Below are positions 1,407 through 46,532 of a stretch of DNA of 64,000 nucleotides, piece after piece (position 1 is the first letter of the stretch; each line of letters opens with the position of its first letter). Source of the DNA: Sminthopsis crassicaudata (Eukaryota). The position numbers were made by a program, and so were the translations under genes. The notes under the pieces were generated by a model. The model was given only the letters and a program-made list of their open reading frames with translations. It did not search any database and was not told the origin of the DNA. The stretch lies in assembly GCF_048593235.1 (NCBI RefSeq), contig NC_133620.1, positions 437,253,261-437,317,260 of the forward strand. Reading direction: 5' to 3'.

Positions 1407-2274
1407 TTACGTTATTCCTTTATTTTGATATTGCCCCTGCTGGGGGAAGTAAGAAAGCTCTCTCTGGTTGCCACTCTGATGTAGTACTGTGAAAGCTTTT
1501 AAATTGCCATGAGAAAATGGAAAATGAAAAACATCAAATACTGCTTCAGATATTTATCTAATACACTGTGGTGAGTGATGGTAAGTGTCATCCTCTGTTT
1601 TGGGGATAACACAAGGAGCCTAGTGTGGTTAGCAAAGCAGAGAAAACCTCACTCTCTTAAGAGGCATGTGTAAGGAGGTGGTAGCTTGGAAAATAAGAAT
1701 TCAGAATGTTCCCTTGCTTGCTTTAGTACTTGCTATTAATTCTGCTTTGTTTTGAGTAAATGCTTTGCTTTAGTTGGGTGTCATGTGACTTATGCTGGCT
1801 CATCAGGAGAAAGTCAGTAAAAATGGGAATTTGTGAGTTGATGGACTCAAATAGATGGCCACCCACTTAGTACCACAGACCCAGAAGGAGGAGACAACAG
1901 GAGATCCCATTAGGAGTGCTGCACAGAATGCATATAAAAACACACATGCAAATAGGTAGTAATATGCAGATACATGCGAACTATTTGGGTTTGTGTGTCT
2001 GTGTGCTAAGGACTTCACTGAAATAAATGCCCGTTATTAAAAAATCTTTGTTCATGTGATAAATGTCCCTAGAATCCACTAACAATTTTTTTAAAAAAGA
2101 AATACTATTTTAAAAACTTTTATCAGCTGCTTTTTGCTTCAAAATGGCTGTCTGTGAAGTCAAACCTGACTTGTCACCATGCTTTTCTCACTTTATGTCT
2201 CTGGACCTCAGTGTCTTTAGCTGTAAGAAGAGGGGTTGACCAACAACAATACTATATGATGATCAGTTCTGATG

Positions 2275-2350
2275 TGTTAGGATTACTAGGTGAGAAAGGT
2301 TGTCTGGATAGTGACAAGGTGAGAATTCAGGTTGGACAATTACAAGGTGA
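2275..2350 (+). repeat. 5' LTR remnant (first 76 bp of U3 only)
   Basis: Identical to 4752-4827 over 76 nt, then switches abruptly to leader sequence. Confidence 0.93.
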
Positions 2351-2404
2351 ATTTTCCAGTGGAAAAGCTTCCAATCTAGATCTCAGTCTCTCTGACCCAG
2401 AACC

Positions 2405-2410
2405 GTGAGT
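2405..2410 (+). promoter_or_regulatory. Putative retroviral major splice donor (CC|GTGAGT)
   Basis: Consensus GTGAGT in the leader about 100 nt upstream of the gag ATG, the usual position. Confidence 0.6.
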
Positions 2411-2506
2411 AACGAGGAAACTTTGTTAAAGATTAAGTGAGCGTGCTAATAGATAAATAAGGAACTTAACTTGTTAAGGGCTAAACCAGGAATCTCTTAT
2501 AGTGAA

Positions 2507-4255
2507 ATGGGGCAAACACCTTCTGTTCAAGGAAAATGTTTGGAGAGCATCATCAAGGTTATGAAAAGCCAAGGATTGATTATAATTTTGGAAGAGATTA
2601 CTGAACTTTTAAGAACTGTGAAGGTCATATATCCTTGTTTCTCTCTGGAAAAAGAATTGGATCCAGATGAGTGGAAATTAGTAGGAGAGCAATTAGGTGA
2701 ACACTACAATTGTCTTTGTGACATTTTACCCTTTGGTTCCAGACCAAACTCAGTTTCCAAAGATACAATTCATACCTACAATTTAATCCAAATGGCTTTA
2801 AAAAATGTTATTCTAAAGGAAGAGATGAAGGAGCAAAATGGGGAAGTGTCAACTAAACTAGGTGAAAAGGATGAATCAGATAACAATGAAGTTAAGTACA
2901 ATTCTGAGCAACAGCAACAGGAGCACCTCCCATCTCCTCCCTCAATTAACCCTTCAGGGGTGGAGCAAGAAGGAGGAGAGGAAGAGGCAGAAACACAAAC
3001 AGAATTGTCTGTGAAGCAGTCTAAGCCTATGACAAGATTAGAAAAAGCATTGGTTAAAGCTAAAAAAGAAGGACAGGATATAAGTGATTTTATACATGCA
3101 TATCCTGTGATTGAAAATATTGACTCTGTAGGTAAAAAAAGGAGAAGATATGCACCTTTAGATTTGAATAAAATTAAGGATTTGAAAAAAGGTTGTACCC
3201 TTTATGGGGCTACATCAGCTTATGTCAAAATGTTACTAGATGGTTTGTCTTATGAAGTCCTAACCCCGAATGATTGGAAATCCATAGCTAGGACATGTCT
3301 GGAACCTGGAGAAAATTTATTATGGCTTGCGGAATTTCATGAATTATGTAAAATTCAAGTCAGATGCAATTTGGAAATAGGAGTTAACACACAATTCACT
3401 TTTGAGCACTTAGCTGGTGAAGGTCAGTATGGAGAGAATTCGGAACAGATTAATTATACCATGACAATATATGAGCAAATTGCTAAGGCTGCAATAAAAG
3501 CTTGGGGTGTCCTCCCTGGACAGAAAGATTGCGGAAAGGCTTTCACTAAAATACAGCAAGGTCCCAATGAACCTTTTGCAGATTTTGTGGGACGTTTGCA
3601 AACTGCTGTCAAAAGAACTATTGGAGAAAATGCAGCTACAGAAATAATGACCAGACATCTGGCTAAGGAAAATGCCAATGAGATTTGCAAAAGAATTATA
3701 TGGGGATTAGACAAAGATGCTCCTTTAGAGGAGATCATAAGATGCTGTGCTACAGTGGGAACAAATGCTTTTTACACCCGGACAATGATGAATGTGGAAA
3801 GGCAGGGTCCCTCCTGTCAAGGGACTTCTAGAGAAACTCGGCGATGTTTTCAATGTGGAAAAATTGGACATCTAAGAGCTCAGTGTAGGTATGGAGATAC
3901 AGTGAAAAGACAGGGTGAGAGAAGACCTAAAACCCCATGTCCAAAATGCAACAGAGGACTCCATTGGGCATCAGAGTGTAGAATAATTCAGGGAAATGGG
4001 ATGAGGGGCCCAGGTCCAGGGCCCCAGGCAAAAAAGACTTGGGGCATGATGGCAGCTGATGTTACACCCAAAGAACCTTTAGAAGGTCAGGACTTTGATT
4101 TGATCAACCAGGAGAAAAGCAATCACATGGCAGAAAGGGATTACCCAATCAGTCAGCCAAAAGGCAATCAGATTGCAAAAATGGATTACACTTGGGGAGA
4201 ATACAGGCCTTTTAAACCAACAGGGCTGTGTCCAGTGCAAACAATTCCAATGTAA
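2507..4255 (+). CDS. gag: Betaretrovirus-like Gag polyprotein, 582 aa, uninterrupted (MA, spacer, CA, NC, tail)
   Basis: MGQTPS myristoylation motif (G2, S6); CA start AYPVIE; major homology region QGPNEPFADFVGRL (about 3557-3598); two intact CCHC knuckles CFQCGKIGHLRAQC (3845-3886) and CPKCNRGLHWASEC (3938-3979). The ORF-track start at 2471 is an upstream TTG. Confidence 0.95.
   Translation: MGQTPSVQGKCLESIIKVMKSQGLIIILEEITELLRTVKVIYPCFSLEKELDPDEWKLVGEQLGEHYNCLCDILPFGSRPNSVSKDTIHTYNLIQMALKNVILKEEMKEQNGEVSTKLGEKDESDNNEVKYNSEQQQQEHLPSPPSINPSGVEQEGGEEEAETQTELSVKQSKPMTRLEKALVKAKKEGQDISDFIHAYPVIENIDSVGKKRRRYAPLDLNKIKDLKKGCTLYGATSAYVKMLLDGLSYEVLTPNDWKSIARTCLEPGENLLWLAEFHELCKIQVRCNLEIGVNTQFTFEHLAGEGQYGENSEQINYTMTIYEQIAKAAIKAWGVLPGQKDCGKAFTKIQQGPNEPFADFVGRLQTAVKRTIGENAATEIMTRHLAKENANEICKRIIWGLDKDAPLEEIIRCCATVGTNAFYTRTMMNVERQGPSCQGTSRETRRCFQCGKIGHLRAQCRYGDTVKRQGERRPKTPCPKCNRGLHWASECRIIQGNGMRGPGPGPQAKKTWGMMAADVTPKEPLEGQDFDLINQEKSNHMAERDYPISQPKGNQIAKMDYTWGEYRPFKPTGLCPVQTIPM
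3991..4025 (+). promoter_or_regulatory. gag-pro type -1 ribosomal frameshift signal
   Basis: Slippery heptamer G GGA AAT (3991-3997) in correct phase, 7-nt spacer, perfect 7-bp stem GGGGCCC (4005-4011)/GGGCCCC (4019-4025); same position as betaretroviral QGN..RG motif. Confidence 0.72.
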
Positions 4256-4259
4256 TTGC

Positions 4260-4509
4260 CAGATGATGAGAAGAGATTTACAAAGTGGTAAATAGAAGGT
4301 AATTAGATAGGTTAACTGCCTGGGGGAGAGGGTTTGCTTGTATTTCTTCAGCAGGAGAAGGAATCAAATGGGTGCCAACGAGTCATATTCGCCTTGTCCA
4401 TCAGAGAGAGACAGAAAAAGAGAAAAGACCTCAAAATAAAGGAGAAGATCTAAGAAACATCCTACACCGAAAGAGCATGGATAATAACAAGACTGTTAAA
4501 GAACTTTAA
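4260..4509 (+). pseudogene. pol: Integrase C-terminal domain relic
   Basis: QMMRRDLQSGK*K then frameshift, then LDRLTAWGRGFACISSAGEGIKWVPTSHIRLVH; WGRGFAC..W.P is the betaretroviral IN C-terminal motif; stop at 4507-4509. Confidence 0.85.
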
Positions 4510-4735
4510 AAACCAGCAGGAATCATTGGACTTCCTCACACAAGATGAGACTAATGGACAATGGACTTATGGACATTTATAAATTTTCAATTTATGATTA
4601 TTTGATTATGTTATTTGTCATATACTTCTAGCATGTATTATGTTACTATGTTACTATGTGCTTATGTAATTTATGTAATTATGTGTAATACTTCCCATAT
4701 TGATGTATGATGATGACTGTCCTATGTTCTAAATC

Positions 4736-4751
4736 AAAAGAAAGGGGGAGA
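4736..4751 (+). promoter_or_regulatory. Polypurine tract
   Basis: AAAAGAAAGGGGGAGA immediately 5' of the LTR TG. Confidence 0.92.
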
Positions 4752-5175
4752 TGTTAGGATTACTAGGTGAGAAAGGTTGTCTGGATAGTGACAAGGTGAG
4801 AATTCAGGTTGGACAATTACAAGGTGAGAACTCAGGTTGACTTGATAGTCCTCTGGCTCAGATTCTTAAGAGGAGCAAGCTCATTGGTTGGAGTACTTCT
4901 TCCCAGAAGCCCTTGCATTATCCCATGCCCATTCTCTGGGAGGATAAAAGAGGACAGCACTCCAGAAAGAGAAGAAGACTCTGCATTGCATCAGGCTTGA
5001 CGGGGCTCTCTGCAGGAAGGGAAGTCACTTCTCTGGACAAGAGTTAACAGCAACTGCCTGGAGACAACGGTTCACTACAGGAAGAAGAATCTGTCGGAGA
5101 GATTTGAGTAGAAGACACAGCAGATCTCTTCCCAGAGAGTGATCCGGCAGCTTCTAGAGACGACAGCTCACTACA
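4752..5175 (+). repeat. 3' LTR, 424 bp
   Basis: TGTTAGG..CTCACTACA; three imperfect GGTGAGAA..AGGTTG units in U3, ATTGG (inverted CCAAT) and a GATAAAAG TATA-like motif. Confidence 0.93.
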
Positions 5176-6139
5176 ATGATGGACATGATTCTCTTCGACA
5201 ATTGAATGATTTAAACCAGTTCCAATTGTTCAGTTATGAAGAGAATCAGCTGCACCCAGAGGGAGAACTATGGAAATGAGTGTGGACCACAATATAACAT
5301 TTCCACTCTTTCTCTTATTGTTTGCTTGCATTTTTGTTTTCCTTCTCAGGTTTTTTTTTTACCTTCTTTCTAGATCTGATTTTTCTTGTGCAACAAGATA
5401 ACTACAAATATGTATACATATATTGTATTTAACATATACTTTAACATATTTAACATGTATTAGACTACCTGCCATCTAGGGGAGGGAGTGGGGGGAAGGA
5501 AGGGAAAAGTTGGAAAACAAGGCTTTGTAAGAGTCAATTTTGAAAAATGACCCATGCATATTCTTATAAATAAAAAGCTATAATAATTTTTTTAAAAAGA
5601 GGGGTTTGAATTAGATGAATTTTAAGATCTCCTGTGGCTCAAAAAACTCTGAATTCAATCTTAAATCTCACATTAAACTTAAGATGTATCAGAAGCATAA
5701 ATGGTTTCTCAACTTTAATATAAAACAGTAGATAAGAATAAAGAAAAGGGGGTAAAGTTGGTCTCAGATCCTAGGAATAGGGATGGTTGATGGAAGGAGT
5801 AAAGGAGATAGTGAATTGGAGAAGAATAATGCTGATAAAAATAATTAAAGTAGCATTTCTATAGTGCTTTGAGGTTTGCAAAGCACTCAAGAAATATTAC
5901 TTTGTTTGATCCTTATAACAAGGATATGTGTAATTATTATTATTGTTTCTATTTTACAAATGAAGAAACTGAGATAAAGTATTGTTTAATATCTGAAGAT
6001 CTTAGTAACTTAGCTTCCTGTTAAAGTGAGTTTGTTTGGGACAGAGAAAGTGATGGCAAAGATTGTTTTTCTCTAGATTATAGGGTACCTCTCCATATTT
6101 TCCTATTCCATTTACCATCTTTTGAATATATATATCTTA

Positions 6140-6361
<222 letters not shown>

Positions 6362-9338: not shown

Positions 9339-11419
9339 TTTTTTTTTTTTTTTTTTTTTAATTTTTTTTTTATTATATATATATTTTATAATATTATCCC
9401 TTGTATTCATTTTTCCAAATTGCCCCCCCTCCCTCTATTCCCTCCCCCCGACGACAGGCAATACCATACATTTTACATGTGTTACAATATAATCTAAGTA
9501 CAATACATGTGTGTGAATATCATTTTCTTGTTGCACAATAAACATTAGAATCCGAAGGTACATGCAACCTGGGCAGACAGATATTAGTGCTAACAATTTA
9601 CATTCGCTTCCCAGTGTTCCTTCTCTGGGTATAGTTATTTCTGTCCATCATTGATCAACTGGAAGTGAGTTGGATCTTCTTTATGTTGAAGATTTCCACT
9701 TCCATCAGAATACATCCTCATACAGTATTGTTGTTGAAGTATACAGTGATCTTCTGGTTCTGCTCATTTCACTCAGCATCAGTTGATTTAAGTCTCTCCA
9801 ACCCTCTCTGTATTCCTCCTGCTGGTCATTTCTTACAGAGCAATAATATTCCATAACCTTCATATACCACAATTTACCCAACCATTCTCCAACTGATGGA
9901 CATCCATTCATCTTCCAGTTTCTAGCTACAACAAAAAGAGCTGCCACAAACATTTTGGCACATATATGTTTCTTTCCGCTCTTTAGTATTTCTTTGGGAT
10001 ATAATCCCAGTAGTAGCGCTGCTGGGTCAAAGGGTATGCACAGTTTGATAACTTTTTGGGCATAATTCCAGATTGCTCTCCAGAATGGCTGGATTCTTTC
10101 GCAACTCCACCAGCAATGTATTAGTGTCCCAATTTCCCCACATCCCCTCCAACATTTATCATTATTTGTTCCTGTCATCTTAGCCAATCTGACAGGTGTG
10201 TAGTGGTATCTCAGAGTGGTCTTAATTTGCATTTCTCTGATCAGTAGTGATTTGGAACACTCTTTCATGTGAGTGGATATAGTTTCAATTTCTTCCTCTG
10301 AGAATTGTCTGTTCATATCCTTTGACCATTTATCAATTGGAGAATGGTTCGGTTTCTTATAAATTAGGGTCAGTTCTCTATATATTTTGGAAATGAGACC
10401 TTTGTCAGAACCTTTGTTTTTAAAAATATTTTCCCAATTTGTTACTTCCCTTCTAATCTTGTTTGCATTAGTATTATTTGTACAGAAACTTTTTAGTTTG
10501 ATGTAATCAAAATCTTCTATTTTGTGATCAATAATGATCTCTAGTTCTCCTCTGGTCATAAATTCCTTCCTCCTCCACAAGTCTGAGAGGTAGATTATCC
10601 TCTGTTCCTCTAATCTATTTATTATCTCCCTCTTTATGCCTAAATCATGGACCCATTTTGATCTTATCTTGGTATATGGTGTTAAGTGTGGATCCATATC
10701 TAATTTCTGCCATACTAATTTCCAGTTTTCCCAACAGTTTTTTCCGAATAATGAATTTTTATCCCTAATGTTGGAATCTTTGGGTTTGTCAAAGATTAGA
10801 TTGCTATAGATGTACCCTTTTTTGTCCTTTGTATCTAATCTGTTCCACTGATCTACCGGTCTATTTCGTAGCCAATACCAAATGGTTTTGGTGACTGCTG
10901 CTATATAATATAGCTTTAGATCAGGTACACTTAGACCACCTTCCTCTGAGTTTTTTTTCATTAGTTCCCTTGCAATTCTTGACCTTTTATTCTTCCATAT
11001 GAATTTTGTTGTTATTTTTTCTAGGTCATTAAAATAGTTTCTTGGGAGTCTGATTGGTATAGCACTAAATAAATAGATTAGTTTGGGGAGTATTGTCATC
11101 TTTATTATATTCGCTCGGCCTATCCAAGAGCACTGAATGTCTTTCCAATTATTTAAATCTGATTTTATTTTTGTGGCAAGTGTTTTGTAATTTTTCTCAT
11201 ATAATTCCTGACTTTTCTTTGGTAGATGGATTCCCAAATATTTTATACTCTCAACATTTGTTTGGAATGGAATTTCTCTTTGTATCTCTTGCTGTTGCAT
11301 TTTGTTAGTGATATATAAAAATGCCGAGGATTTATGTGGATTTATTTTGTATCCTGCCACTTTGCTGAAATTTTGAATTATTTCTAGTAGCTTTTTAGCA
11401 GAGTCTTTGGGGTTCTCTA
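9339..11419 (-). mobile_element. Young 5'-truncated L1, sense to SPAG17
   Basis: Pure 21-nt poly(A) tail (T run 9339-9359), 16-bp perfect TSD GGTAGGCAATTCTTTT at 9327-9342 and 11420-11435, CT/AAAA endonuclease-type site, retained CpGs. Confidence 0.97.
9705..11419 (-). CDS. L1 ORF2p C-terminal fragment (RT end, cysteine-rich domain); frame open but start lost by 5' truncation
   Basis: 551 aa without stop in the ORF track: GYKINPHKS, KYLGI, LPKLIYLFSAIP, GGLSVPDLKLYY, CWRGCGEIGTLIHCWWSC zinc knuckle. Confidence 0.92.
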
Positions 11420-13729
11420 GGTAGGCAATTCTTTTAGACCTCCCTAATTAATTCACTATCCCACTCACCATAAGTAGCTCTAATAAACTTTTTCATGACT
11501 CCCAGGAAACTACCCATGGATCCTTCTCCAACTATCTTCCCCATTGAGAAAATCATATTATACTGAAAAAAAAACTCATGTTTTGCTGAAAAAATTGAGG
11601 GTGTTCACAAAAAGCTTTCTCTCTCTTTTTGTTTTAAGTAACCCAGATGATTTGCTCAGCCACTACTGGGTTCTAGTGCCCCACAAATTACTTTTTGTAT
11701 TTATAAATTTACTTAAGTATTTTTTCCTGCAATATAGTAAATTCTGTGAAGACAGGGATTATTTCATTTTGTCTTTGTATCTCTCTCATCTACTTATTGT
11801 CCTAGTACATAGTTGTCTTTTAATAAATGCTTGTGGATAGATTGAAAAAGAAAACATTTCCTAATAAATAGAACTATAAAAAAATGGAAACAGCTACCTT
11901 GGCCTCTGAGGTCAGTTTGGAGCTGCTGTAATCCCACCCAATATCTTTTCATCTTTTCCCTTTCCTTGGTTGGTATCAATTTTGATATTGATGTGTTTAA
12001 TTAGTTGATGATCTACCTAAACATGGACAGCTGATTCTTGAATGACTTATATGTTAATAAGTAGTAATTTTCTGAATATTGAAAATAGTCAATTTCAATT
12101 TTAGAAAATTTATTTGAATTGCCTGGTTCTTCCAACTCCTTTAATGGAGAAAACATTGTTATATAATCAGGAGGTTTCTGAGTAAACTTTTGGTCTTTGA
12201 CATTTCATGAGCATGAACATTTTTTGGCCATTGTCATCCTGCATCTTCTGTCTCATTAAAGTCAGAGCATGAAGGCTAATGTTGACTTAAAAATCTTGTC
12301 CAATTCTTCAAATAATGTCTTTGCCTCCTTCTTTTACAACAGATTTTGGCATATAATGTGTAATTTTCTTTACGTGGGATGCAAGATGAAACTAACTCTT
12401 GCTTACTCTTGAAGGAGAACTTGTGAGCCATATTTCCATTTAACTGTAGCTTCTTTCTTCTGGTTTTATTTAAAGCAAGAATGTCAATGATTAAATGCCT
12501 CTTATATCATATTCACTCATTAAATAGCTAAAATTTTTACATTTTAAGGACCAGAAGTTAAATAAACATTTAGAGACATTTAAAATTGGCATAATTTTTT
12601 AGTACATTTTAACACAAAACTAGACTTTGTTTTTGATGACTGTCACTGCAAAAATAGGAGACTCCCCATTGGATAGAGTGTGTTTTATATTTGGTTTTGC
12701 TTGATAGGTTTCACAGAGTGCCAAAAAAAATTCATCAGCAAGTAACCAATTAGTTGATGATGGTCCCTTTTTATTCTAAGGCAAGTTTTCACATAATGGA
12801 GCTACTTTCTGTTGCTTAGTGGAACCCGTCTATTTGTTTAGTCTGATAGACCACAGGCTCATGCCTGAAACTATATGGTTAGGCCTTATCAGAGATTTTT
12901 CCTCCTCCTTCAGGAAGCCAACTTAGCCTTGGGACAAATTTTACTGAATCCTTGACACTTCACCCAACAAACATGATTTAATTTTGGGAGCCTGGGACAT
13001 TATAGAGCTGAGAGAGGAAGATAAAAATGGATGTTACCCTTTACAGAAGTCAATATGAATCGGGTTAATGTCTAATTCATACTTGATTTGTGTTTTCTAG
13101 TCTTAGATACCTCACTAGAATGTGACTTTCTTGAAAATATTTTCAGCTGTGCAAATTTGTGTAAATCACTTAAATTATCTGAGCCATAATTTCCTCAACC
13201 ATAAAACTGGAATATTGTGAAGCTTGAAATAGCACTGGTCAGTGAAAAGAATGCTGGATTAAGGAACTAGCTTCATCATTTACTACCTGGGCAACTTTCA
13301 GAAAATAATTTCCCATTTCTGGATCTCAATTTCTCCATTTGTAAAATAAAGACTAGATCATTTCCAAGGTCTCTTACAGCTATAAGTGGTGCATGTACCT
13401 ATTTAAGCATGTTTTCTCCACCATTAGAATACAAGCGCCTTTAGAGTAGGAATGTTTTAAAAATGTTTTCTTTGTATTCCCAGTGCTTAGTCTAGTGTCT
13501 AATACAGGGTAATTTCTTAATACTTATTGATTTATTTATAAAACTACATAATTTGTCCATCCATCTCTCTTTCTATCTATTTATCTATCTATAGCTAATA
13601 AGGATATCAACAACAATGGTCTATATTTTTGCTAGAAACATATATGGAAAATATGTGCTAGAAATATATATGAAAAGAGAGCCTGAAAAGAACATTTGGA
13701 AGGCAAAGGATCATTGGGAACTTCACTCA

Positions 13730-23303: not shown

Positions 23304-23456
23304 NNNNNNNNNNNNNNNNNNNNNNNNNNNNNNNNNNNNNNNNNNNNNNNNNNNNNNNNNNNNNNNNNNNNNNNNNNNNNNNNNNNNNNNNNNNNNNNNN
23401 NNNNNNNNNNNNNNNNNNNNNNNNNNNNNNNNNNNNNNNNNNNNNNNNNNNNNNNN
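23304..23456. other. Assembly gap (153 N)
   Basis: N run. Confidence 1.
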
Positions 23457-34719: not shown

Positions 34720-35350
34720 AGTATGCAGAGTGCCACAAATGCATTTACACAAAAGGACATATAAGATGTGCTGCCGAAGTTTGACTCACAAATATATCAT
34801 AAAGCATTAGAGGTAGTGGGAAATGATGAGCAGGATGCTTTTAGAAAAAAAAATAAACCTGGGAAGTCCTCCATGAACTCAAGCAAAGTGAAATGTACTG
34901 TCTATAAAGTAATAGCAATGTTGTGGAACGACCAGATGTAAATGACATTCCTATTCTCAGCAANNNNNNNNNNNNNNNNNNNNNNNNNNNNNNNNNNNNN
35001 NNNNNNNNNNNNNNNNNNNNNNNNNNNNNNNNNNNNNNNNNNNNNNNNNNNNNNNNNNNNNNNNNNNNNNNNNNNNNNNNNNNNNNNNNNNNNNNNNNNN
35101 NNNNNNNNNNNNNNNNNCTCATTTTTTCTATCTCTGTCTCTCCCTTACCTCCTCTCTTTTTACTTTTTTTCTCATGGGTTTTTTATTAGGGTAGGAGATC
35201 TATTTTCTTTCACAACATGACTTTTATGGAAATGTTTTGCATAACTTCACATGTAGTTTCTTAATGGAGCTAGGGGTGAGAATAAGAGAAAATGGAACTC
35301 AAAAAGTTTTTTTTTTAAATGGGAAAAATCTGTTTTAAATGTAATTGAGG
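34720..35350 (+). mobile_element. Old L1 3' relic spanning an assembly gap
   Basis: ccatgaactcaagcaaagtgaaatg.. and ..gggtaggagatctattttctttcacaacatgac. Confidence 0.6.
34964..35117. other. Assembly gap (154 N)
   Basis: N run. Confidence 1.
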
Positions 35351-39818: not shown

Positions 39819-40144
39819 TGTTAGGATTACTAAGTGAGAACTCAGGTTTTCTGGACAATTACAAGGTGAAAACTCAGGTTGACTTGATAGAGGGGGCAAG
39901 CTCATTGGCTGGGGTGGTTCTTCCCAGAAGCCCTTGCATTATTCCACGCCCATTCTCTGGGAGGATAAAAGAGACAGCACTGGGCCCAGAGAGCAGATCG
40001 GCCTGGAGAAGGATAAGAGCTGGAGGAGATTCAGAGCCAGGATTCAAGAAGAAAGACTCTGCATTGCATCAGGCTTGACGGGGCTCTCTGCAGGAAGGGA
40101 AGTCACTTCTAAGGACAAGAGTTATCCACTTAGTAATCCTAACA
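39819..40144 (+). mobile_element. Solo LTR of the same family as 4752-5175, with U5 replaced by an inverted U3 tip
   Basis: Aligns to the 3' LTR from TGTTAGG to GGACAAGAGTTA; ends in CACTTAGTAATCCTAACA; flanks ATAGGA / ATAGAT. Confidence 0.92.
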
Positions 40145-41180: not shown

Positions 41181-41698
41181 NNNNNNNNNNNNNNNNNNNN
41201 NNNNNNNNNNNNNNNNNNNNNNNNNNNNNNNNNNNNNNNNNNNNNNNNNNNNNNNNNNNNNNNNNNNNNNNNNNNNNNNNNNNNNNNNNNNNNNNNNNNN
41301 NNNNNNNNNNNNNNNNNNNNNNNNNNNNNNNNNNNNNNNNNNNNNNNNNNNNNNNNNNNNNNNNNNNNNNNNNNNNNNNNNNNNNNNNNNNNNNNNNNNN
41401 NNNNNNNNNNNNNNNNNNNNNNNNNNNNNNNNNNNNNNNNNNNNNNNNNNNNNNNNNNNNNNNNNNNNNNNNNNNNNNNNNNNNNNNNNNNNNNNNNNNN
41501 NNNNNNNNNNNNNNNNNNNNNNNNNNNNNNNNNNNNNNNNNNNNNNNNNNNNNNNNNNNNNNNNNNNNNNNNNNNNNNNNNNNNNNNNNNNNNNNNNNNN
41601 NNNNNNNNNNNNNNNNNNNNNNNNNNNNNNNNNNNNNNNNNNNNNNNNNNNNNNNNNNNNNNNNNNNNNNNNNNNNNNNNNNNNNNNNNNNNNNNNNN
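41181..41698. other. Assembly gap (518 N)
   Basis: N run. Confidence 1.
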
Positions 41699-45992: not shown

Positions 45993-46532
45993 NNNNNNNN
46001 NNNNNNNNNNNNNNNNNNNNNNNNNNNNNNNNNNNNNNNNNNNNNNNNNNNNNNNNNNNNNNNNNNNNNNNNNNNNNNNNNNNNNNNNNNNNNNNNNNNN
46101 NNNNNNNNNNNNNNNNNNNNNNNNNNNNNNNNNNNNNNNNNNNNNNNNNNNNNNNNNNNNNNNNNNNNNNNNNNNNNNNNNNNNNNNNNNNNNNNNNNNN
46201 NNNNNNNNNNNNNNNNNNNNNNNNNNNNNNNNNNNNNNNNNNNNNNNNNNNNNNNNNNNNNNNNNNNNNNNNNNNNNNNNNNNNNNNNNNNNNNNNNNNN
46301 NNNNNNNNNNNNNNNNNNNNNNNNNNNNNNNNNNNNNNNNNNNNNNNNNNNNNNNNNNNNNNNNNNNNNNNNNNNNNNNNNNNNNNNNNNNNNNNNNNNN
46401 NNNNNNNNNNNNNNNNNNNNNNNNNNNNNNNNNNNNNNNNNNNNNNNNNNNNNNNNNNNNNNNNNNNNNNNNNNNNNNNNNNNNNNNNNNNNNNNNNNNN
46501 NNNNNNNNNNNNNNNNNNNNNNNNNNNNNNNN
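45993..46532. other. Assembly gap (540 N)
   Basis: N run. Confidence 1.

What the first reader, a model, noticed from the sequence alone, without database searches (positions are those of the whole stretch)
2275..5175. Gag-only betaretrovirus-like element: intact gag with pro/RT/env deleted and a decayed integrase stub
Seen: a 582-codon gag with MA, CA/MHR and both zinc knuckles intact. About 5 nt after its stop comes only the last part of integrase, which already carries a stop and a frameshift; then an AU-rich UTR, PPT and LTR. The surviving 76 nt of the two LTRs are identical, so the IN damage probably predates this insertion and was in the parent element while gag stayed open. Inference: a non-autonomous lineage that keeps Gag (needed in cis, or acting as an interfering Gag) and borrows Pro/Pol from a helper. 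Established parallel: class III MaLR elements keep a gag-like ORF and lack pol. I do not know whether a class II marsupial version has been described.
Basis: partly seen in the sequence, partly recalled or inferred. Interest (0 to 1): 0.78.

Follow-up and report, generated by a model that had tools for sequence, protein, structure and literature searches.

The report
Gag-keeping parasitic retroelement family of dunnarts
This is one damaged copy of a multi-copy dunnart-type retroelement family that lost its enzyme genes in one shared deletion but kept its capsid gene open, and it likely spread by borrowing enzymes from intact relatives, much as known deleted retroelements of mice and macaques do.

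Summary
The 582-codon ORF (2507-4255) carries MA, CA and two zinc knuckles; pro and RT are absent; an integrase C-terminal stub, PPT and 424-nt LTR follow. The breakpoint is not after the stop but about 50 nt before it (4202/4203): the last 17 codons are integrase-derived and in frame (by eye against the published dasyurid element MEBrv3; about 3.0 kb missing). That tail marks the deletion. It is in 6 of 6 fat-tailed dunnart RefSeq paralogues that reach it, on four chromosome-scale contigs, and in contigs from two RNA-labelled runs (one label a guess), one of them from a second organism label. So this is a lineage, not a one-off. Among young copies capsid varies far less than NC plus tail (9/184 vs 28/156 columns, p=0.0002), which hints at selection; a small synonymous-site test was inconclusive. 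This copy has lost most of its 5' LTR and its primer-binding site, so it is probably dead. It likely works like mouse IAP 1Δ1: own Gag acting in cis, enzymes from a helper. Ten literature searches found no description of the dasyurid form; Repbase/Dfam were not checked. Gag-keeping non-autonomous elements are known elsewhere.

The parts
2269..2274 (+). left target-site duplication; 5 of 6 bases match 5176-5181
2275..2350 (+). 5' LTR stub, first 76 nt of U3; the rest of the LTR and the PBS are deleted at 2350/2351, apparently in this copy only
   Evidence: 76/76 identical to 4752-4827; no PBS-like match in 2275-2520; 8 contigs of run X11 continue upstream of 2354 with PBS-like letters (table 7, by eye; PBS motif recalled)
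2351..2506 (+). remaining 5' leader; its 3' half resembles the MEBrv3 leader
   Evidence: by eye
2507..4202 (+). gag-derived part of the ORF (codons 1-565): MA, spacer, CA (Pfam hits codons 215-412), two CCHC knuckles (codons 446-460, 478-492), repeat-containing tail; it runs past the position where MEBrv3 Gag ends
3991..4059 (+). relic gag-pro -1 frameshift site (in-phase heptamer 3991-3997, G+C-rich stretch after it); the -1 (pro) frame closes after 22 codons at 4057-4059
   Evidence: folding not better than shuffles, z -1.2
4202..4203 (+). shared deletion junction: about 3.0 kb (nearly all pro, all RT/RNase H, integrase N-terminal and core domains) missing relative to MEBrv3 positions ~2401-5410; placed by eye, within a few nt
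   Evidence: bridged by contigs, table 8
4203..4255 (+). 17 integrase-derived codons in frame with gag, ending at the ORF's stop; protein-level marker of the deletion
   Evidence: 14-17 of 17 identical in six dunnart paralogues; by eye to MEBrv3 Pol
4256..4509 (+). decayed integrase C-terminal relic: other frame, stop 4293-4295, frame change near 4300, open 68-codon piece 4303-4506, stop 4507-4509
4510..4735 (+). short A+T-rich 3' UTR with one copy (near 4519) of a unit that is tandemly repeated about ten times in the MEBrv3 UTR; no env
   Evidence: copy count by eye
4736..4751 (+). polypurine tract
4752..5175 (+). 3' LTR, 424 nt, TG...CA; no visible likeness to the 469-nt LTR of the MEBrv3 representative
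   Evidence: by eye
5176..5181 (+). right target-site duplication

Best explanation
This locus is one copy of a multi-copy deletion lineage of the dasyurid env-less betaretrovirus group (MEBrv3-related), in which a shared loss of about 3 kb fuses a complete gag in frame to 17 codons of integrase; the lineage likely spread by making its own Gag, which would favour packaging of its own RNA, while borrowing protease, RT and integrase from intact relatives. Shown: the anatomy, the shared junction, dispersal over several chromosomes, decay of the pro frame and integrase relic, lower variation in capsid, and two unrelated MA types on the same backbone. Inferred: co-packaging with a helper, selection on Gag, a cis advantage of the IAP 1Δ1 type. 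This copy lacks its PBS and most of its 5' LTR and is likely a dead end.
For: Junction tail in 6 of 6 dunnart RefSeq proteins that reach it (P0001, P0003, P0022, P0024, P0028, P0030) on 4 contigs of 478-757 Mb; the other 6 of the 12 proteins in the clade end or diverge earlier and none shows protease. In a CA tree, window plus these 12 form one clade (95/99), sister (84/64, weak) to P0004 (devil) and protease-bearing P0005. Contigs bridging 4202/4203 with 31 nt or more on both sides: 3 of the 32 pieces listed (152,401 not shown); X11 record 16 and X20 record 23 are robust, X11 record 15 has only 41 nt on one side. 79,227 and 54,880 contigs of two DNA-guessed runs lie on the stretch. P0003 (88% identical) ends at the same integrase stop. 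Variable columns among six young junction-bearing Gags: CA 9/184, NC plus tail 28/156, Fisher p=0.0002; p=0.0001-0.0025 after weighting for mutational opportunity and CpG or leaving out the frameshift region. Of the 5 listed common indels between 2507 and 4751, 1 is in gag (in frame) and 4 in the relic and UTR (all frame-breaking lengths), p=0.01 (12 of 31 indels shown). N-terminus mosaic: window type is closest to devil P0004 (103/159), P0001 type to dunnart P0007 (107/174), whose CA is only 130/233 identical, which fits recombination with another subfamily. Intact gag-pro-pol, env-less MEBrv3 copies with identical LTRs are reported in fat-tailed dunnart (PMC11334065). Precedent: the 1Δ1 Gag-Pol fusion acts in cis and needs helper proteins (PMC6466679, PMC7411935).
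Against: Of 33 listed single-site differences in gag, the 26 not private to this copy were 9 synonymous and 17 non-synonymous, not above the neutral 21-27% (p 0.12-0.37); the 7 private ones were 5 non-synonymous and 2 synonymous (a biased 40 of 497 rows, mixing subfamilies and runs). No DNA of paralogues was available, so no real dN/dS. Capsid conservation could come from recombination with a helper. No helper with the same LTR or a close capsid was found: the nearest protease-bearing Gag is 174/229 identical in CA, and co-assembly at that distance is uncertain. No translation evidence.
Confidence: 0.55

Rival explanations
1. Passive hitch-hiker. The shared deletion spread only by co-packaging, as proposed for macaque SERV-K/MER11 and type 1 HML-2 deletions. 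Gag is open because the copies are young and open ones are the ones that get noticed; the protein does nothing for the element.
For: Synonymous test inconclusive, and this copy's private changes look neutral. Open-ORF ascertainment in RefSeq. A direct class II precedent explained without selection on Gag (10.1101/2022.05.11.490678, passages). Many non-autonomous class II elements spread with no ORF at all (ETn, deer-mouse ERVK).
Against: Capsid is 3-4 times less variable than NC plus tail among junction-bearing copies. Common frame-breaking indels avoid gag. The pro frame and integrase relic have several lesions while gag stays open across an 88% identical pair.
Confidence: 0.33
2. Host-useful or interfering Gag. 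One or more copies are kept by the host as a trans-dominant restriction factor against the MEBrv3 burst or for a developmental role, as with zebrafish Bhikhari Gag.
For: Several copies are annotated as dunnart genes, one with four accessions. Contigs from RNA-labelled runs cross the junction. The Gag cannot give protease by frameshift and has a foreign tail. Gag-only Bik-1 and Bik-2 have developmental roles (PMC12067270).
Against: Many near-identical dispersed copies fit selfish spread. No orthologous locus across species was shown. This copy has lost its 5' promoter region and its private changes look neutral. RNA contigs do not prove transcription (caveat).
Confidence: 0.08
3. One post-insertion deletion multiplied by segmental duplication, or an assembly artefact.
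For: The window is from a gapped assembly (4 N-runs), and flanks of the paralogues could not be seen.
Against: Copies on four chromosome-scale contigs in an independent annotation, two MA types, 82-89% identical bridging contigs including one from a second organism label, and a target-site duplication at the element's own ends.
Confidence: 0.04

Closest known systems
MEBrv3 (marsupial endogenous betaretrovirus 3; PMC11334065)
   Same: Env-less class II dasyurid element. Leader, Gag order, Gag tail repeats, frameshift region, integrase C-terminus and UTR unit are collinear by eye.
   Different: MEBrv3 has intact pro and pol. The window lineage lacks about 3.0 kb, has a different LTR and a shorter UTR, and its CA is only about 59% identical to the devil Gags most like the representative (136/230). 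The paper has no hit for 'autonomous', 'truncat' or 'in trans'.
Mouse IAP 1Δ1
   Same: Non-autonomous derivative of an env-less class II element; one shared deletion makes a gag-pol fusion ORF that helps in cis; needs helper proteins.
   Different: 1Δ1 loses part of gag and keeps part of pol (1.9 kb deletion) and needs Gag in trans. Here the whole Gag with both knuckles is kept and only 17 pol-derived residues are added, so the element could supply its own structural protein.
Macaque SERV-K/MER11 copies with shared pro-pol and pol-env deletions
   Same: Betaretrovirus-like; 31 proviruses share both deletions; 28 gag ORFs against 6 pol ORFs overall; spread ascribed to co-packaging.
   Different: Derived from an env-bearing virus; two deletions; no gag-integrase fusion or selection on gag was reported in the passages seen.
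Zebrafish Bhikhari (Bik-1, Bik-2) and plant TR-GAG
   Same: LTR elements whose only ORF is Gag, non-autonomous and multi-copy.
   Different: Unrelated lineages (lokiretrovirus-like; plant LTR elements). Bik-1 copies have no pol components, and the host function shown for Bik is untested here.
MaLR
   Same: Non-autonomous mammalian LTR elements.
   Different: Class III, with only traces of retroviral homology; here canonical class II Gag domains and a traceable parent.

Membership tests
Class II (betaretrovirus-like) ERV | Gag with p10 MA, p24 CA/MHR and two CCHC knuckles | tested here: met
Class II (betaretrovirus-like) ERV | RT phylogeny places it in class II | not testable with these tools
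   RT is deleted in this element
Class II (betaretrovirus-like) ERV | LTR TG...CA, PPT, about 6-bp target-site duplication | tested here: met
   TSD matches at 5 of 6; expected length recalled
Class II (betaretrovirus-like) ERV | tRNA-Lys primer-binding site | tested here: not met
   absent in this copy; PBS-like letters upstream of 2354 in 8 contigs of other copies (by eye, motif recalled)
MEBrv3 (autonomous, as defined in PMC11334065) | intact gag, pro and pol, about 7.3 kb, no env | tested here: not met
   2.9 kb, pro and pol deleted; so a derivative, not a member of the autonomous form
MEBrv3 (autonomous, as defined in PMC11334065) | Gag, integrase end and UTR homologous to the representative | tested here: met
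   by eye only; tool-based CA identity to MEBrv3-like devil Gags 136-139/230; separate subclade
MEBrv3 (autonomous, as defined in PMC11334065) | same LTR as the representative | tested here: not met
   no visible likeness by eye; run X20 covers internal parts but not 4830-5129
Non-autonomous LTR element lineage | same deletion at several unlinked loci | tested here: met
   6 of 6 informative paralogues on 4 contigs; bridging contigs
Non-autonomous LTR element lineage | distinct flanks and TSDs at each copy | not testable with these tools
   no genome held; only this copy's TSD seen
Non-autonomous LTR element lineage | coexisting autonomous partner | tested here: inconclusive
   intact MEBrv3 reported in dunnart; 94 and 109 contigs diverge upstream of 4305 towards the MEBrv3 type (by eye); partner identity unknown
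IAP 1Δ1-like cis-acting fusion ORF | in-frame gag-pol fusion made by the deletion | tested here: met
   17 integrase-derived codons in frame
IAP 1Δ1-like cis-acting fusion ORF | translation of the ORF raises the element's own mobility | not testable with these tools
   needs experiment; indirect tests mixed
Catalogued Repbase/Dfam internal family | structure already deposited as an internal consensus | not testable with these tools

The most novel reading that the evidence does not exclude
A dasyurid-wide, recently amplified 'Gag-donor' parasite: a class II retroelement that keeps a complete, selected capsid gene and builds its own particles, takes only catalytic amounts of Pro/Pol from MEBrv3-type helpers, swaps matrix domains with them, and may account for a large share of the dasyurid ERV burst now counted as MEBrv3 (mean ERV length about 1.7 kb in PMC11334065).
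Probability: 0.3. Interest if true: 0.68.

Novelty: new variant of a known kind. Interest (0 to 1): 0.47.

Why it matters
If Gag is under selection in this lineage, it is a natural mammalian test of whether a retroelement's own Gag gives a packaging advantage in cis. The effect is reported for mouse IAP 1Δ1, but here the Gag is complete and there are many copies for a population-genetic test. It would also refine the account of the MEBrv3 expansion in dasyurid genomes, which treats the family as autonomous env-less elements, and it explains a set of dunnart RefSeq 'genes' (at least 12 in this clade) as copies of one mobile lineage. If Gag is not selected, it is an ordinary shared-deletion subfamily worth a repeat-library entry.

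Tried and rejected
No host genome is held, so copies could not be counted, flanks compared or dN/dS computed. Searches for helper Pol with the 68-aa integrase piece failed: 0 of 23 candidates scored and only 3 repetitive, unrelated proteins came from the representative library; weak negatives. A tail search found only the two dunnart clusters already known (2 of 5 candidates), so no junction-bearing protein from another species. Metagenome and viral contig scans gave nothing usable: 0 of 593 and 1 weak chance-level hit of 51; the 2 junction-pattern hits are chance 22-mers. Rfam: 0 hits in the window. The stem after the frameshift heptamer folds no better than shuffles; pseudoknots are not modelled. 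ESM Atlas returned generic Gag zinc-knuckle clusters. Summed contig depth is not used as a copy number. Lack of LTR cover in run X20 and lack of a loose-end peak at 4202/4203 among 24 of 4,244 rows are not taken as evidence. Rejected: dating the integrase damage from 76 identical LTR bases (bound only <3.9%); the breakpoint lying after the gag stop; MaLR as nearest parallel. Earlier scan findings: none returned. The primary IAP 1Δ1 paper (Saito 2008) is not held.
Full report
Verdict. The feature is real and is a lineage, not a single broken provirus. It is a deletion derivative of the env-less betaretrovirus-like group of dasyurid marsupials. Whether its Gag is kept by selection is suggested, not proven. 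The kind of element is known from mouse, macaque, zebrafish and plants; this dasyurid form was not found in print by my searches.

1. Anatomy. The ORF runs from ATG 2507 to stop 4255, 582 aa. Pfam gives Gag_p24 (E 9e-35) and Gag_p24_C (6e-20) above cut-off, and Gag_p10 and two zinc-knuckle models below cut-off; two CCHC motifs and the MHR pattern are present. An in-phase slippery heptamer lies at 3991-3997, but the -1 frame closes after 22 codons. Downstream, 4303-4506 is a 68-codon piece matching the integrase DNA-binding domain (PF00552, E 1.9e-5), preceded by a stop at 4293-4295 and a frame change. Then come a short UTR, a PPT (4736-4751) and a 424-nt LTR (4752-5175). The 5' LTR is a 76-nt stub identical to the start of the 3' LTR. 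The flanks match at 5 of 6 bases. No PBS-like sequence is left in 2275-2520.

2. Identity and breakpoint. The nearest proteins are fat-tailed dunnart RefSeq Gags, up to 95-96% identical, then devil Gags. No host genome is held, so the window's species is not established. Harding et al. 2024 (PMC11334065; main text parts 1-4 of 7; supplement parts 1, 3, 4, 5 of 12) describe MEBrv3, a 7.3-kb gag-pro-pol element without env that makes up on average 67.5% of dasyurid ERVs, with intact copies and identical LTRs in dunnart. Read by eye against its record, the window follows the end of MEBrv3 gag to about 4202 (record position ~2400) and resumes at 4203 in the integrase linker after the core domain (~5411). 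About 3.0 kb is missing. The breakpoint is inside the ORF, at codon 566, so the last 17 residues are integrase-derived and in frame. This step was by eye, because no Pol relative could be fetched by tool. The LTR shows no visible likeness to the representative's, and CA is about 59% identical to MEBrv3-like devil Gags (136/230): a sister subfamily.

3. The junction is shared. The tail marks the deletion at protein level. Of 32 proteins held then, 6 carry it: P0001, P0003, P0022, P0024, P0028, P0030, at 14-17 of 17 residues, on four contigs of 478-757 Mb. In a CA tree (window plus 31 proteins; P0020 left out for short cover) the window and 12 dunnart proteins form one clade (95/99). The 6 that reach the junction all have it; the other 6 end or diverge earlier; none shows protease. 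P0003, 88% identical, reads on in the integrase frame and ends exactly at the window's stop at 4293-4295, so that lesion is older than their split. Laying public contigs on 2330-5300 placed 79,227 and 54,880 contigs from two DNA-guessed runs, 16,367 from an RNA-guessed run and 1,424 from an RNA run of a second organism label; this shows a very repetitive family but is no copy number. Three of the 32 listed pieces bridge 4202/4203: X11 record 16 (4148-4345, 22 differences, 6 gaps), X20 record 23 (4081-4299, 39 differences, 1 gap) and, more weakly, X11 record 15 (41 nt on one side). 152,401 pieces were not shown, and none of the 16 pieces listed for the two DNA runs spans the junction. The X20 record suggests the deletion is old and perhaps shared between species; what organism B is, I do not know. 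Other contigs diverge upstream of 4305 (94, 109 and 7 in X1, X4, X20) and look by eye like the published MEBrv3 integrase, so undeleted relatives seem to coexist. Eight X11 contigs continue upstream of 2354 with PBS-like letters (motif recalled), so the LTR/PBS loss appears local to this copy.

4. Is Gag selected? For: among the window and five young junction-bearing paralogues, variable columns are 9/184 in CA against 28/156 in NC plus tail (p=0.0002; with P0003, 22/184 against 39/152, p=0.002). This holds after weighting for non-synonymous opportunity and CpG, and after dropping the frameshift region (p 0.0001-0.0025). Of five listed common indels between 2507 and 4751, one is in gag and is in frame; four are in the relic and UTR and are not multiples of three (p=0.01; 12 of 31 indels shown, helper-type copies included). 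The frameshift region, useless without pro, differs from the window in 7 of 7 paralogues that reach it. Against: of 33 listed single-site differences in gag, the 26 non-private ones are 9 synonymous and 17 not, within neutral expectation (p 0.12-0.37), and this copy's 7 private ones are 5 non-synonymous and 2 synonymous. That table is a biased 40 of 497 rows. An ORF of this size stays open by chance in 16-50% of cases at 1% divergence, and annotation favours open ORFs.

5. Recombination. Two unrelated N-termini sit on the same CA-NC-tail. The window type is closest to devil P0004 (103/159), the P0001 type to dunnart P0007 (107/174), whose CA is only 130/233 identical to the window's. The simplest reading is template switching with another subfamily in a shared particle; gene conversion is not excluded.

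6. Mechanism (inferred). An intact-LTR copy is transcribed and translated; its Gag starts assembly on its own RNA; a minority of helper Gag-Pro-Pol supplies the enzymes; the short genome is copied and integrated. Confidence 0.55. The main rival is passive co-packaging with open gag by youth and ascertainment (0.33). Host use of the Gag gets 0.08, duplication or artefact 0.04. A weak point is that no close helper was found; the nearest protease-bearing Gag is 174/229 identical in CA. This copy cannot be primed without a PBS (established retroviral biology) and is likely dead.

7. Known parallels. IAP 1Δ1: 1.9-kb deletion, Gag-Pol fusion acting in cis, helper needed (passages of PMC6466679 and PMC7411935; the primary paper is not held). 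Macaque SERV-K/MER11: 31 proviruses share pro-pol and pol-env deletions, ascribed to co-packaging (passages of 10.1101/2022.05.11.490678). [quoted passage not shown] Plant TR-GAG (PMC4350172, listing and start of abstract). ORF-less class II parasites (passages of 10.1101/2022.10.18.512801 and 10.1101/2024.06.21.600049). The devil repeat survey passages (PMC4408412) do not mention such an element. Searches and a word search of the MEBrv3 paper found no gag-only dasyurid form. The library lacks most subscription papers, Repbase and Dfam could not be checked, bioRxiv supplements are closed, and 8 of 12 parts of the MEBrv3 supplement were not read.

8. Score. New variant of a known kind; interest 0.47. 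A specialist would find it a good, testable case rather than a surprise.

Noticed in passing
window 39819-40144: A 326-nt piece of a related LTR is bounded by a perfect 18-nt inverted repeat of the LTR's own U3 end, with flanks matching at 4 of 6 bases. It looks like an integrant with two U3 ends, possibly an aberrant integration product.
   Followed up: partly
window 3991-4021 (gag codons 496-505): All 7 dunnart paralogues that reach the old frameshift region differ from the window there, in seven different patterns, mostly residue changes that fit G-to-A: relaxed constraint, an editing hotspot, or selection against frameshifting.
   Followed up: partly
window 2507-3030 and proteins P0001, P0022, P0026-P0028: Two unrelated matrix/spacer types on one capsid backbone. 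P0030 lacks the glycine at position 2 that the window and most others keep.
   Followed up: partly
window 4510-4560; MEBrv3 record ~5760-6240: The MEBrv3 3' UTR is a tandem array of about ten copies of a ~40-nt unit; the window has one. In one frame the unit resembles an env immunosuppressive-domain motif (recalled), so the env relic reported for MEBrv3 may be this repeat. Its position is not annotated in the record, so this is unchecked.
   Followed up: no
supplement of PMC11334065, MEBrv2 record, last ~1 kb: The record ends in what looks by eye like an antisense MEBrv3-type UTR and integrase end, i.e. a neighbouring or nested element.
   Followed up: no
window 9705-11447 (-): 580 open codons that read like the 3' part of a LINE-1 ORF2 (family recalled; weak RVT_1 hit, E 2e-4), suggesting a fairly young L1 piece.
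   Followed up: partly
window 2330-5300, run X1/X4/X11 joint 3407 to 4315: Single contigs in X4 and X11 skip 907 nt from capsid to the integrase relic (table 5), a possible further-deleted, Gag-broken derivative.
   Followed up: no
window 23304-23456, 34964-35117, 41181-41698, 45993-46532: Four N-runs; none is near the element.
   Followed up: yes
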